DNA from: a virus
Lineage: Duplodnaviria; Heunggongvirae; Uroviricota; Caudoviricetes
DNA length: 43,044 bases
Direction: 5' to 3' (one strand)
IMG/VR virus record: IMGVR_UViG_2711768052_000001
Coordinates: 1-43,044 of that record
The position numbers and the translations under genes were made by a program. Below are positions 1 to 43,044 of this stretch, piece after piece; positions within the stretch are counted from its first letter, which is position 1, and the number at the start of each line of letters is the position of its first letter. A model generated the notes under the pieces. That model had not been told where the DNA came from and did no database searches. It saw nothing but the letters and a program-made list of their open reading frames with translations.

Positions 1-15
1 CTGCAGGGGACACCA
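1..15. repeat. att core copy (left), ctgcaggggacacca; matches the 3' end of argW-type tRNA-Arg
   Basis: Exact 15-bp direct repeat with 43030..43044; ends in CCA like a tRNA 3' terminus; the tRNA-Arg match is from memory. Confidence 0.8.
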
Positions 16-127: not shown

Positions 128-176
128 TGACGGGTAAAAAGTGGATAAAATAATTTTACCCACCGGATTTTTACCC
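128..176. promoter_or_regulatory. Candidate integrase/excisionase arm-type binding repeats (GGGTAAAA motif, one direct and two inverted copies) overlapping the int start
   Basis: gggtaaaaa, ggataaaat and two ttttaccc copies within about 50 bp; the same motif recurs twice at 42951..42971 near the other prophage end. Confidence 0.3.
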
Positions 177-1334
177 ATGCTCACCGTTAAGCAGATTGAA
201 GCAGCAAAGCCGAAAGAAAAACCATACCGCCTACTCGATGGTAATGGCCTGTACCTTTATGTCCCTGTATCAGGGAAAAAGGTATGGCAGCTTCGCTACA
301 AGATTGACGGTAAGGAGAAAATCCTGACTGTCGGAAAATATCCGCTTATGACTTTGCAGGAAGCAAGGGATAAGGCATGGACTGCGAGGAAAGACATCTC
401 GGTTGGCATCGATCCGGTAAAGGCGAAAAAGGCTTCGTCTAACAACAATTCATTTAGTGCGATTTACAAGGAATGGTACGAGCACAAGAAGCAAGTCTGG
501 TCAGTAGGCTATGCAACTGAACTTGCCAAAATGTTTGATGACGACATTTTACCCATCATCGGCGGTCTTGAGATTCAGGATATTGAGCCGATGCAACTGC
601 TGGAAGTAATCCGCAGATTTGAAGATCGCGGTGCAATGGAGCGAGCCAACAAAGCACGCAGAAGATGCGGCGAGGTTTTCCGTTACGCTATTGTCACCGG
701 AAGGGCTAAATATAACCCGGCACCTGACCTTGCAGACGCCATGAAAGGATACCGCAAGAAGAACTTCCCGTTCCTTCCAGCAGACCAGATGCCTGCATTC
801 AACAAAGCACTGGCAACATTTTCAGGAAGTATCGTATCGCTCATTGCGACAAAAGTTTTACGTTATACAGCCCTAAGAACGAAAGAGCTTCGTTCCATGC
901 TATGGAAGAACGTCGATTTTGAAAACAGGATTATCACCATCGACGCCAGTGTGATGAAGGGACGCAAAATTCATGTGGTTCCTATGTCAGACCAGGTGGT
1001 TGAACTTCTTACTACGCTAAGCTCAATCACCAAACCAGTCTCAGAGTTTGTTTTTTCCGGGCGCAACGATAAGAAGAAACCAATCTGCGAGAACGCGGTA
1101 TTGCTTGTGATCAAACAAATCGGCTATGAGGGGCTGGAAAGCGGTCACGGATTCAGGCATGAATTCAGCACGATTATGAACGAGCACGAATGGCCTGCTG
1201 ACGCTATTGAAGTGCAACTTGCACATGCCAACGGCGGATCTGTGCGCGGAATTTACAACCATGCTCAGTATCTCGATAAACGCAGAGAAATGATGCAATG
1301 GTGGGCGGACTGGATTGATGGGAAGGTGGAGTAA
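177..1334 (+). CDS. intS: Tyrosine integrase, P4/IntS family (385 aa from the second Met)
   Basis: ORF 141..1334; N-terminal AAKP...DG.GLYL arm-binding motif and C-terminal catalytic domain typical of P4-like integrases; protein from MLTVKQIEAAKPKEKPY recalled as near-identical to E. coli IntS; the ORF track begins at GTG 141 with no SD, so the ATG at 177 is preferred. Confidence 0.9.
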   Translation: MLTVKQIEAAKPKEKPYRLLDGNGLYLYVPVSGKKVWQLRYKIDGKEKILTVGKYPLMTLQEARDKAWTARKDISVGIDPVKAKKASSNNNSFSAIYKEWYEHKKQVWSVGYATELAKMFDDDILPIIGGLEIQDIEPMQLLEVIRRFEDRGAMERANKARRRCGEVFRYAIVTGRAKYNPAPDLADAMKGYRKKNFPFLPADQMPAFNKALATFSGSIVSLIATKVLRYTALRTKELRSMLWKNVDFENRIITIDASVMKGRKIHVVPMSDQVVELLTTLSSITKPVSEFVFSGRNDKKKPICENAVLLVIKQIGYEGLESGHGFRHEFSTIMNEHEWPADAIEVQLAHANGGSVRGIYNHAQYLDKRREMMQWWADWIDGKVE

Positions 1335-21431: not shown

Positions 21432-21611
21432 TCAGGTTGAGGACTCTTTCGCGCCTTCAATCAGTGACTGCTTCAGCAATTCGAGTGTGCCAATCGCCTC
21501 GCATAAACTGATTTCACCATCGTAATCATGGATGACGCTTTCCAGCCTCTCGTATAGCTCTTGAGTAATTGGGAATTTCTTCTCCTTACCAAGATCAACG
21601 ACGCTTGTCAT
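21432..21611 (-). CDS. Hypothetical small protein (59 aa)
   Basis: ATG-initiated ORF below the 60-aa cutoff of the ORF track; weak AGGAA SD; fills the gap upstream of the small terminase. Confidence 0.4.
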   Translation of the reverse strand: MTSVVDLGKEKKFPITQELYERLESVIHDYDGEISLCEAIGTLELLKQSLIEGAKESST

Positions 21612-21620
21612 AGAGGATTC

Positions 21621-21908
21621 CTATAATTTTGAATATCCAGACTCAAATACCTCAGCAGGAGAATATGATTCATATCCATCCTCATAGACAACGTAATAGC
21701 CTCCAGACATTGGTCGGTGCTTACAGATATATTCCGCGCTAACATCAAATGCTGCGTATTTCTTATCATCCGGATGAATAATTGCCCCATAACTAGAAGA
21801 GCCAGTCTTACCAGACTGATCTGGGTTTGGCTTATGTTCTATAGAGCCAATCTTCAGGGCGCGAACTTTTTTGTGGCACTGGTATCTCGGCATTTCTTGT
21901 TCAGTCAT
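21621..21908 (-). CDS. Hypothetical protein (95 aa)
   Basis: ORF with Tyr/Gly-rich C-terminus; tightly packed upstream of the terminase genes. Confidence 0.6.
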   Translation of the reverse strand: MTEQEMPRYQCHKKVRALKIGSIEHKPNPDQSGKTGSSSYGAIIHPDDKKYAAFDVSAEYICKHRPMSGGYYVVYEDGYESYSPAEVFESGYSKL

Positions 21909-21911
21909 CTC

Positions 21912-22091
21912 TTACACTCCGGTAGTGAACAGGTCTAACGCTTCCTTCGATTTACGCACCGCTTCGATAGTGCGGGTCGTGATATCTGAATTAGCGCCGC
22001 CTGACTGGAAGTGAATTTTGAATAGCTCAAGCTTCAGCTCGTCAGTGCCAATGAATTGAAATGCTTCCTCTGCGGCTGCGTTCTGGTTCAT
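21912..22091 (-). CDS. Hypothetical small protein (59 aa); may be the C-terminal part of a frameshifted gene
   Basis: ATG ORF with poor SD; an overlapping upstream 37-codon frame has a good SD (see findings). Confidence 0.3.
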   Translation of the reverse strand: MNQNAAAEEAFQFIGTDELKLELFKIHFQSGGANSDITTRTIEAVRKSKEALDLFTTGV

Positions 22092-22258
22092 GACCAGCTT
22101 GTAAATCTCTAACTGGAATTTGCTGTTCTTCAGTCATGGGAATAATCTCTGCCATTGTTGGCTCCGTTTATCCGTTAAAAGGGATATCAGTTAAGTTATC
22201 CCGTGTAGGGTATAAGCCATTATCAAAGCCACTCTGTAGGGAATGGCTTTTGTAATAA

Positions 22259-22639
22259 CTACTGTTCGCTTAGCTTCTGCTTCAGCAAGTAACCTTCGAG
22301 CATCCAGATTTTGTTTACAGCATTTTGCCTGGCAATCTTCCGACCAATTTCTGCATCAAAGTTTTCCGGGCTTGCACAGGCGCTCTCTCCGGTGACGGTG
22401 AAGCCATTCTTCAGCACCAGTACGCAGAAAGTGAGCAACTTCAATGGTGATAAATCACGATCGCCTTCTTCTGGTTTTTCCCTGCCACAATATTCGTTGC
22501 TGGAAATGGCACCATTACGTCCATCATAAGCAGTAAAGTAATGCTCGCTTTTAATCACGTCTTCGATGTGCTGCGGAGTGATTCTCGGAGCGGTTTTGCC
22601 TTTCTCAACGATTTCTTTTTCGATTTGCTGGTCGTTCAT
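22259..22639 (-). CDS. Hypothetical protein (126 aa)
   Basis: ORF followed by a conserved post-stop hairpin element. Confidence 0.6.
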   Translation of the reverse strand: MNDQQIEKEIVEKGKTAPRITPQHIEDVIKSEHYFTAYDGRNGAISSNEYCGREKPEEGDRDLSPLKLLTFCVLVLKNGFTVTGESACASPENFDAEIGRKIARQNAVNKIWMLEGYLLKQKLSEQ

Positions 22640-22865: not shown

Positions 22866-23153
22866 CTACTTCTTCAGAACTGATTCGATGAATTCACGTC
22901 GGGGATGACGATAGTTCAGAATATCTTCTGGCATCCTCATAAAGCGGTTGTTGCCGTCTTTGGCAGTAACAAAACAGCTGTGAACTCCGCAGACATCCGT
23001 TTTGATTGTGTCGCTATACTCAAAAAGCAACTGAGCCATCTTCTCTTGCCATTCTGGCGGCATAGCCTCCATGAATACTCGCGGCATCACGCAGAACGGC
23101 GCATGCGTAAGACCAAACCACAGTTGCAGGTCTTTACGATATTCTTCATCCAT
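22866..23153 (-). CDS. Hypothetical protein (95 aa)
   Basis: AAGG SD; preceded by a terminator and followed by the same post-stop element as the 126-aa gene. Confidence 0.6.
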   Translation of the reverse strand: MDEEYRKDLQLWFGLTHAPFCVMPRVFMEAMPPEWQEKMAQLLFEYSDTIKTDVCGVHSCFVTAKDGNNRFMRMPEDILNYRHPRREFIESVLKK

Positions 23154-33092: not shown

Positions 33093-33752
33093 ATGAAAAT
33101 GAAATGGTATGAACTGGCTAGATCCAGAATGAAAGAGCTCGGCATAACTCAAGAGAGGTTAGCTGAAGAGCTTGGTATGACGCAGGGTGGAATTGGTCAC
33201 TGGTTGCGCGGATCTCGTCATCCATCTCTTGACGAGATTGGTGTGGTGTTTAAATACCTTGGTATTGATAACGTCTCATTCAACCACGACGGTACATTTT
33301 CACCTGTTGGCGAATACTCTCTGCCCCCGTTAAAAAAACAATATGAGTACCCTGTTTTTTCTCATGTTCAGGCCGGGATGTTCTCGCCTGAGCTTAGAAC
33401 CTTTACCAAAGGTGATGCGGAGAGATGGGTCAGCACAACCAAAAAAGCCAGTGATTGTGCGTTCTGGCTTGAAGTTGAAGGTAATTCCATGACCGCGCCA
33501 ACAGGATCCAAGCCAAGCTTTCCTGACGGGATGTTAATTCTCGTTGACCCTGAGCAGGCTGTTGAGCCAGGTGATTTCTGCATAGCCAGACTTGGTGGTG
33601 ACGAGTTTACCTTCAAGAAACTGATCAGGGATAGCGGTCAGGTGTTCCTACAGCCACTAAACCCGCAATATCCAATGATTCCATGCAATGATAGCTGTTC
33701 CGTAGTAGGGAAAGTTATCGCCAGCCAGTGGCCTGAAGAGACATTTAGTTAA
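33093..33752 (+). CDS. cI: CI repressor (about 219 aa): non-lambda N-terminal HTH domain fused to a lambda-like C-terminal S24 peptidase/dimerisation domain
   Basis: C-terminal about 115 aa ([30 protein letters not shown]...EVEGNSMT...) recalled as near-identical to lambda CI; N-terminal HTH differs; start may be 33093 or 33099 (ORF track 33030). Confidence 0.9.
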
Positions 33753-42755: not shown

Positions 42756-42956
42756 ATGCAACACGAACTACAACCTGATTCACTGGTTGATTTGAAATTC
42801 ATCATGGCCGATACTGGCTTCGGTAAAACCTTCATTTATGACCGGATTAAGTCCGGCGACCTGCCTAAAGCCAAAGTTATCCACGGGCGAGCAAGATGGT
42901 TATATCGTGACCATTGTGAATTCAAAAATAAGCTCTTAAGCCGCGCCAATGGGTAA
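42756..42956 (+). CDS. alpA: AlpA-family transcriptional regulator / excisionase-like protein (66 aa)
   Basis: ...IMADTGFGKTFIYDRIKSGDLPKAKVIHGRARWL: phage AlpA-type HTH; last gene before attR, upstream of int across the att junction. Confidence 0.8.
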   Translation: MQHELQPDSLVDLKFIMADTGFGKTFIYDRIKSGDLPKAKVIHGRARWLYRDHCEFKNKLLSRANG

Positions 42957-43029: not shown

Positions 43030-43044
43030 CTGCAGGGGACACCA
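43030..43044. repeat. att core copy (right), ctgcaggggacacca
   Basis: Exact direct repeat of 1..15; preceded by non-tRNA (phage) sequence, so this is the phage-proximal junction. Confidence 0.8.

What the first reader, a model, noticed from the sequence alone, without database searches (positions are those of the whole stretch)
21912..22130. Possible frameshifted or recoded small gene upstream of the terminase region
A 37-codon frame with a good SD (MAEIIPMTEEQQIPVRDLQAGHEPERSRRGSISIHWH) overlaps a 59-codon frame (21912..22091) that has a poor SD but continues open upstream without an in-frame ATG. The pair looks like one gene split by a +1 shift.
Basis: inference. Interest (0 to 1): 0.25.

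Follow-up and report, generated by a model that had tools for sequence, protein, structure and literature searches.

The report
Small phage gene broken by one-base insertion
The two overlapping small reading frames are one ordinary 80-codon prophage gene of unknown function (DUF2560 family) that a single extra base has split in two, so this is a frameshift lesion or a sequencing error and not programmed recoding.

Summary
On the minus strand, a 37-codon ORF (22155..22042, GGAG Shine-Dalgarno 6 nt upstream) overlaps by 50 nt a 59-codon ORF in the +1 frame (22091..21912, no Shine-Dalgarno). Orthologues carry one 243-nt, 80-codon gene here: Shigella phage Sf6 gene 67, HK620 hkbM, and "DUF2560 family protein" in hundreds of E. 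coli genomes. The window differs by one extra C at 22122 (GAACAG[C]AAATT), after codon 11 and outside any homopolymer. Deleting it restores a protein identical to a common E. coli allele and matching Pfam DUF2560 end to end (E = 1e-43).

The inserted allele appears in none of 896 complete E. coli genomes carrying the segment. Its exact 31-mer is absent from three large collections, while the wild-type 30-mer occurs at least 120 times in IMG/VR alone. I found no slippery site, Rfam element or unusual RNA structure.

It is most likely a recent loss-of-function mutation. Other database copies of this gene carry different lesions: two amber codons, a deletion and other frameshifts. An assembly error cannot be excluded without reads. 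Interest is low.

The parts
21912..22155 (-). Disrupted DUF2560-family gene (orthologue of Sf6 gene 67 / HK620 hkbM). It is 244 nt here against 243 nt in orthologues.
   Evidence: Alignment A1. After deleting base 22122 the translation equals the E. coli 222 protein WP_000807789. Full-length Pfam PF10834 match, E = 1.1e-43.
22122..22122 (-). The inserted base: C on the coding strand, G on the + strand, directly after codon 11 (CAG). Context is GAACAG[C]AAATT, so it is not in a homopolymer and its position is unambiguous.
   Evidence: Gap in all 3 relatives in A1. Gap in 107 of 107 covering relatives. It is the only 1-nt indel against the closest 5.2-kb relative, L138.
22162..22165 (-). Native Shine-Dalgarno GGAG, 6 nt upstream of the native ATG (22155..22153).
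   Evidence: Read directly from the sequence. Identical in Sf6, Huey and E. coli 222.
22042..22155 (-). ORF A, 37 codons. It has the native start and 11 native residues (MAEIIPMTEEQ), then 26 out-of-frame residues and TGA.
   Evidence: No Pfam hit. This exact product is absent from the 15-billion-protein collection.
21912..22091 (-). ORF B, 59 codons. It equals native codons 22-80, starts at the internal Met22, has no Shine-Dalgarno, and lacks predicted helix 1.
   Evidence: It matches Pfam PF10834 profile positions 18-72. The AlphaFold2 model places helix 1 at residues 9-20.

Best explanation
One gene of the DUF2560 family has acquired a single-base insertion after codon 11. The family encodes an 80-residue, predicted four-helix protein. 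The gene sits in the late operon of P22-like and lambdoid phages, between the lysis cassette and the terminase genes.

Ribosomes starting at the native Shine-Dalgarno and ATG read 11 native codons. They then read 26 out-of-frame codons and stop, giving a 37-aa peptide. The remaining 69 native codons lie in the +1 frame. They can be translated only from the internal Met22 ATG, which has no ribosome-binding site. At most, a small amount of a 59-aa fragment lacking helix 1 would be made.

The lesion is derived, very recent, and not decoded by any programmed mechanism. I take it to be a genuine loss-of-function mutation in a gene the prophage can do without.

Shown: the insertion, its uniqueness, the single-gene state of orthologues, and the absence of recoding signals. 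Inferred: that the base is present in the real DNA, that the product is non-functional, and that the gene is dispensable.
For: **One gene in orthologues.**
- Sf6 gene 67, phage Huey CDS0067 and E. coli 222 WP_000807789 each have one 243-nt ORF at the same position.
- 114 of 119 fetched relatives have an 80-aa ORF.

**The insertion.**
- One extra C at 22122, seen as a gap in 107 of 107 covering relatives.
- Removing it gives a protein identical to an E. coli allele found on at least 1000 contigs, with a full-length PF10834 match.

**Derived and recent.**
- The 80-aa ORF is conserved down to about 60% identity, including Serratia and Shimwellia.
- The three nucleotide differences from the E. coli 222 gene are all synonymous.
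- Across alleles I counted 55 synonymous against 24 non-synonymous distinct codon changes, as expected for a normally selected gene.
- Residues 1-21 contain invariant positions M1, T8, Q11, L15 and L20.

**Not recoding.**
- The allele is absent from 896 complete E. coli genomes carrying the segment; the best match is 99.0%, which is the one gap.
- Its 31-mer has 0 hits in genome contigs, IMG/VR and JGI metagenomes. The wild-type 30-mer has at least 120 hits in IMG/VR.
- No Rfam match. RNA fold z-score is +0.76.

**A real mutation is plausible.**
- No other indel has unanimous support at comparable depth in the 28.7 kb covered by relatives.
- The context is not a homopolymer.
- Other database copies of this gene carry independent lesions: Q11 amber, Q14 amber, a deletion of about 60 nt, mosaic junctions, and frameshifts near codons 46, 47 and 56.
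Against: - The allele is a singleton. I could not inspect reads, so a single-base assembly or consensus error would look identical.
- The complete absence of further decay downstream of the insertion fits an artefact as well as it fits a very recent mutation.
- No near-identical prophage is present in the databases (only 6 contigs share the exact TerL, and none is the same prophage). The mutation could therefore not be confirmed in a sister isolate.
- Dispensability of the gene is inferred, not tested.
Confidence: 0.68

Rival explanations
1. The extra C is a sequencing, assembly or consensus error. The real prophage carries an intact 80-codon DUF2560 gene.
For: - The allele is seen only in this one draft contig.
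- Everything downstream of the insertion is intact and identical in protein sequence to a common allele.
Against: - The site is not a homopolymer.
- In the 28.7 kb covered by relatives, no other indel has unanimous support at comparable depth.
- Against the closest relative over 5.2 kb, the only other gap is a 3-nt intergenic one at a mosaic junction. The assembly is therefore not indel-prone.
- Real lesions of this gene are common in other records.
- The singleton status carries little weight, because no sister prophage is in the databases.
Confidence: 0.27
2. This is a programmed +1 (or -2) ribosomal frameshift. Ribosomes shift from frame A to frame B within 22133..22045 and make a full-length DUF2560-like protein.
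For: - Two overlapping open frames in a +1 relationship, with the only good Shine-Dalgarno on the upstream one.
- Nothing else supports it.
Against: - The arrangement is not conserved. All orthologues encode the protein in one frame, and the shifted allele is unique.
- A-frame codons across the overlap are CAG CAA ATT CCA GTT AGA GAT TTA CAA GCT GGT CAT GAA CCA GAA CGC AGC CGC AGA GGA AGC ATT TCA ATT CAT TGG CAC TGA. None offers a P-site codon whose tRNA can re-pair at +1 (no CUU-U, CCC-N or UUU-N type site).
- The terminal CAC-UGA is not slippery, and there is no internal Shine-Dalgarno just upstream.
- The one good +1 site (CCC-A at codon 6) runs straight into the frame-B TGA (read).
- No Rfam frameshift element and no stable downstream structure.
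Confidence: 0.01
3. The 59-aa C-terminal fragment, translated from Met22, is a functional short isoform. N-terminal lesions that leave it intact would then be tolerated or even selected.
For: - The exact 59-aa ORF is called on 19 contigs.
- In the 10 places shown, it arises through at least five different upstream lesions.
- It still scores 111 bits against PF10834.
Against: - The look-up by exact 59-aa product can only find lesions upstream of Met22, so the apparent clustering comes from how the search was done.
- Lesions downstream of Met22 are also frequent.
- Met22 is not conserved in the family; L, S, A and Q occur at that column.
- There is no Shine-Dalgarno in front of it.
- The fragment lacks helix 1 of a four-helix model and several invariant residues.
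Confidence: 0.03
4. These are two independent small genes that happen to overlap.
For: Each frame is open and begins with ATG.
Against: - Orthologues have a single gene.
- ORF A has no homologue as such and its exact product is absent from the protein collection.
- Its last 26 residues are simply the out-of-frame reading of conserved DUF2560 codons.
Confidence: 0.01

Closest known systems
Shigella phage Sf6 gene 67 / coliphage HK620 hkbM / Pfam PF10834 (DUF2560), PHROG 571
   Same: - 97-99% nucleotide identity over the gene and its upstream region.
- Same Shine-Dalgarno and start codon.
- Same position downstream of the lysis cassette and the Gp49 (Sf6 gene 66) homologue, and upstream of the small and large terminase genes.
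- Function is unknown in every library consulted.
   Different: The window's copy has one extra base after codon 11, so it is not a single ORF.
Other naturally disrupted DUF2560 alleles in public assemblies
   Same: - The same gene, sporadically inactivated.
- Several alleles leave the identical 59-aa C-terminal ORF, which gene callers then report as a 'DUF2560 family protein'.
   Different: Their lesions are different events: CAG>TAG at codon 11, CAG>TAG at codon 14, a deletion of about 60 nt that removes the start, mosaic junctions, and frameshifts near codons 46, 47 and 56. None has the +C at codon 12.
prfB (RF2)-type programmed +1 ribosomal frameshifting
   Same: The geometry alone: a short upstream frame with the ribosome-binding site, continued in the +1 frame.
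   Different: There is no conservation, no slippery codon followed by a stop or hungry codon, no internal Shine-Dalgarno, and no Rfam hit (plus sequence inspection).

Membership tests
Pfam PF10834 DUF2560 (Sf6 gp67 / HK620 HkbM family) | Profile-HMM score above the curated gathering threshold (25 bits). | tested here: met
   The restored 80-aa sequence scores 147.7 bits, E = 1.1e-43, over profile positions 1-72 of 72. ORF B alone scores 111.1 bits over profile positions 18-72.
Pfam PF10834 DUF2560 (Sf6 gp67 / HK620 HkbM family) | Encoded as one uninterrupted ORF of about 80 codons. | tested here: not met
   The window has a 1-nt insertion at 22122 that splits it into 37- and 59-codon ORFs. By descent it is a disrupted member, that is, a pseudogene or an error.
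Pfam PF10834 DUF2560 (Sf6 gp67 / HK620 HkbM family) | Conserved position in the late region, between the lysis genes and the terminase small subunit of P22-like/lambdoid (pro)phages. | tested here: met
   The same neighbours are seen in Sf6, E. coli 222, CH4804 and 15 further contigs, alongside three different terminase types.
Programmed +1 ribosomal frameshift (prfB-like) | The frameshift is conserved among orthologues. | tested here: not met
   No other sequence carries it, and 107 of 107 covering relatives lack the base.
Programmed +1 ribosomal frameshift (prfB-like) | A slippery P-site codon followed by a stop or rare codon, with a stimulatory internal Shine-Dalgarno. | tested here: not met
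   Codon-by-codon inspection of 22133..22042 finds no such site. This was manual inspection, not a dedicated predictor.
Programmed +1 ribosomal frameshift (prfB-like) | A trans-frame protein is actually produced. | not testable with these tools
   This needs proteomics or a reporter assay.
Programmed -1 frameshift (dnaX / phage tail-chaperone G-GT type) | An X XXY YYZ heptamer, with the downstream frame at -1. | tested here: not met
   The downstream frame is +1, not -1 (coordinates). There is no heptamer in the overlap, no Rfam match and no stable structure.

The most novel reading that the evidence does not exclude
The repeated appearance of alleles that destroy only the first ~20 codons and keep a perfect 59-aa C-terminal ORF might reflect selection in lysogens. 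Five or more independent lesions do this, including this +C. Selection could act against the full-length protein or for a short Met22-initiated isoform, making this a recurrently 'switched' prophage gene and not random decay.
Probability: 0.03. Interest if true: 0.4.

Novelty: already known. Interest (0 to 1): 0.07.

Why it matters
It matters little biologically. For annotation, the locus should be labelled as one frameshifted DUF2560 pseudogene (or corrected after checking reads). It should not be annotated as a 59-aa "DUF2560 family protein" plus an orphan 37-aa ORF, and it should not be listed as a recoding candidate. There is a minor by-product: the gene is normally under purifying selection yet is often found broken in prophages. 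That is weak evidence that lysogens do not need it.

Tried and rejected
- **Recoding.** I looked for conservation of the shift, Rfam elements, stimulatory RNA structure (z = +0.76) and slippery motifs by eye. All were negative.
- **Independent assembly of the same isolate.** I tried exact-protein look-ups to find one and so settle error against mutation. None was found. The closest relative, L138 (ERR1618944), is a different prophage with an intact gene.
- **N-terminal clustering of lesions.** I first read the cluster of N-terminal lesions as possibly meaningful. I rejected this because the exact-product look-up can only return such alleles, and lesions elsewhere in the gene are also common.

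Full report
**1. What is in the sequence.** The genes in this part of the window run on the minus strand.
GGAG lies at 22165..22162, 6 nt before its ATG.
- ORF B (22091..21912) encodes 59 residues, and no Shine-Dalgarno-like sequence precedes its ATG.
- Frame B is open for 14 further codons upstream (LKNSKFQLEIYKLV) back to a TGA at 22136..22134, with no ATG, GTG or TTG.
- Frame B is the +1 frame relative to A, and the two ORFs overlap by 50 nt.
- The description is accurate. The one correction is that the stated range (21912-22130) omits the first 25 nt of ORF A.

**2. What orthologues show.**
- A megablast of the region against phage records found 158 records. The best were Escherichia phage Huey, Klebsiella phage phiKp_30, Shigella phage Sf6 and IME10. 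In each of the three whose coordinates show it (Huey, Sf6, IME10), 744 query bases aligned to 743 subject bases.
- In complete E. coli genomes, 2549 of 5426 carry at least part of the segment, annotated 'DUF2560 family protein'.
- In Sf6, Huey and E. coli strain 222, one 243-nt CDS occupies this position: Sf6 gene 67 ('similar to phage HK620 gene HKbM protein'), Huey CDS0067 and WP_000807789.
- The four-way DNA alignment shows a single difference of length. The window has GAACAG-C-AAATTCC where the others have GAACAG-AAATTCC.
- The extra base is the C at window 22122 on the coding strand. It has G on one side and A on the other, so its position is unambiguous and it is not in a homopolymer.
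- Deleting it gives MAEIIPMTEEQKFQLEIYKLVMNQNAAAEEAFQFIGTDELKLELFKIHFQSGGANSDITTRTIEAVRKSKEALDLFTTGV. This is identical to the E. coli 222 protein and to a sequence recorded on at least 1000 contigs.
- The restored protein matches Pfam PF10834 (DUF2560) over the whole profile (147.7 bits, E = 1.1e-43). ORF B alone covers profile positions 18-72, and ORF A matches nothing.

**3. Is the shift shared by anything else?**
- A 101-nt query centred on the insertion matched 896 complete E. coli genomes. The best identity was 99.0%, with 101 query bases aligned to 100 subject bases, so none has the extra base.
- The exact 31-mer containing the insertion has no match in one genome per GTDB species, in IMG/VR, or in JGI metagenomes.
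- A blastn of the whole window against all fetched loci found the 22122 insertion as a gap in 107 of 107 covering relatives. No other non-triplet indel had unanimous support at comparable depth. One other, a 1-nt deletion at 33319 supported by 3 of 3 relatives, sits next to compensating insertions at 33332 and 33338 in a divergent patch. Most of those 107 loci were selected through the wild-type 30-mer, so the unbiased evidence comes.
- The 37-aa product of ORF A is not on record anywhere.

**4. Where the window comes from.**
- Exact-product look-ups identified the window as the whole 43,044-bp contig CXXR01000044.1 of assembly GCA_001268205.1, in reverse orientation. The sequence identity was verified.
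- Only six contigs encode the identical large terminase, and none is the same prophage.
- The closest, a Logan assembly of ERR1618944 (L138), is 99.46% identical over 5.2 kb and has the intact 80-codon gene. Its only length differences from the window are a 3-nt intergenic gap at a mosaic junction and the C at 22122.
- No sister copy of this prophage is in the databases. The singleton status of the allele therefore says little about whether it is a real mutation or an error.

**5. Is the gene normally functional, and is the N-terminus needed?**
- Homologues are confined to enterobacterial (pro)phages and go down to about 60% identity, including Serratia and Shimwellia.
- In an alignment of 24 mostly 80-residue members, M1, T8, Q11, L15 and L20 are invariant. 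E3, E10, F13 and Y18 are nearly so.
- Among 104 distinct 243-nt alleles, I counted 55 synonymous and 24 non-synonymous distinct codon changes relative to the restored allele. By my rough estimate, given about three non-synonymous sites per synonymous site, this indicates purifying selection.
- The three nucleotide differences between the window's gene and the E. coli 222 gene are all synonymous.
- An AlphaFold2 model (pLDDT 87.1) is a bundle of four helices at residues 9-20, 25-35, 39-51 and 58-78. ORF B lacks helix 1, and ORF A contains only three native residues of it (9-11).
- Met22, the start of ORF B, is not conserved; L, S, A and Q occur at that column. This argues against a conserved internal start.

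**6. Recoding.** A shift that rescues the protein would have to be +1 or -2 and occur between 22133 and 22045.
- Reading the A-frame codons, no P-site codon allows re-pairing at +1. The final CAC-UGA is not slippery, and no internal Shine-Dalgarno is present.
- The one good +1 site, CCC-A at codon 6, leads directly into the frame-B TGA.
- There is no X XXY YYZ heptamer, and the direction is wrong for a -1 shift.
- Rfam gave no hit even at E up to 1.
- The 96 nt starting just before the insertion (22125..22030) fold no better than shuffled controls (z = +0.76).
- Together with the lack of any conservation, programmed frameshifting is effectively excluded.

**7. Other broken copies.**
- The exact 59-aa ORF B product is on record on 19 contigs.
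- Reading their upstream DNA shows that, apart from the window itself, they carry different lesions:
  - CAG>TAG at codon 11 (L126, L131, L133);
  - CAG>TAG at codon 14 (L129);
  - a deletion of about 60 nt that removes the Shine-Dalgarno, the start and roughly the first 18 codons (L127, L130, L134);
  - a mosaic junction that replaces the first codons (L125, L132).
- This look-up can only return lesions upstream of Met22, so the clustering is an ascertainment effect.
- Other cluster representatives show lesions further along the gene. Frameshifts occur near codons 46, 47 and 56; one of these variants has 63 member sequences. Mosaic junctions occur near codons 27, 35 and 44.
- Sporadic disruption of this gene in (pro)phage copies is therefore common, and the window's allele is one more instance.

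**8. Function of the gene.**
- It is unknown in Pfam, PHROGs (phrog_571) and PADLOC.
- No solved relative was found by sequence.
- No informative literature was found.
- The gene keeps its place upstream of the terminase genes, usually with the same 95-aa and 59-aa neighbours. It does so whichever of three terminase types follows.

**9. Verdict.**
- Its main interpretation, one gene split by a +1 shift, is correct. The 'recoded' alternative is rejected.
- The best explanation is a recent one-base insertion that inactivates a DUF2560 gene (about 0.68).
- The main rival is a consensus error in the draft assembly (about 0.27). Only the reads can separate the two.
- This is an ordinary frameshifted copy of a known family, of low interest.

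Noticed in passing
window 1-15 and 43030-43044; 141-1334(+); 42756-42956(+): The window is an entire draft contig (CXXR01000044.1, GCA_001268205.1). It begins and ends with the same 15-nt sequence, CTGCAGGGGACACCA, where 0 matches are expected by chance. A tyrosine integrase lies at the left end and a TorI/Xis-like 66-aa ORF at the right end. It looks like a complete P22-like prophage cut exactly at its att core repeats. From memory, the repeat resembles the 3' end of tRNA-Arg argW, and the layout resembles the KplE1/HK620/Sf6 arrangement in which int and xis are split to opposite ends. A circular contig with a 15-nt overlap is the alternative.
   Followed up: partly
L125-L134 (loci), region upstream of the 59-aa ORF: Other public contigs carry independent N-terminal knock-outs of the same DUF2560 gene: amber codons at Q11 and Q14, a deletion of about 60 nt, and mosaic junctions. 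Frameshifted and mosaic variants further into the gene are also common (P0089, P0073, P0085, P0105 and others). Gene callers report many of these fragments as 'DUF2560 family protein'.
   Followed up: partly
window 22866-23153 (-): This 95-aa ORF matches only the C-terminal part (profile positions 139-230 of 233) of phrog_3527. It may be the remnant of a longer gene left by a mosaic junction. Other relatives have a Rha/ORF11CD3, Tad2-like, T5orf172 or DUF551 gene in this variable slot between the lysis genes and DUF2560.
   Followed up: no
window 22259-22639 (-): This is a homologue of Sf6 gene 66 (Pfam Phage_gp49_66). The identical-position gene in the phage Huey record is labelled 'anti-CRISPR protein', while PGAP calls it 'Gp49 family protein'. 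The anti-CRISPR label is an automatic annotation that I did not verify.
   Followed up: no
window 21621-21908 (-) and 21432-21611 (-): Two small conserved genes of unknown function (phrog_11049 and phrog_3546) lie between the DUF2560 gene and the small terminase gene. In other contigs they stay with DUF2560 even when the terminase module is swapped among three types (Sf6_terminase/Terminase_3, GP3_package/Terminase_6N, Terminase_2/Terminase_3).
   Followed up: no
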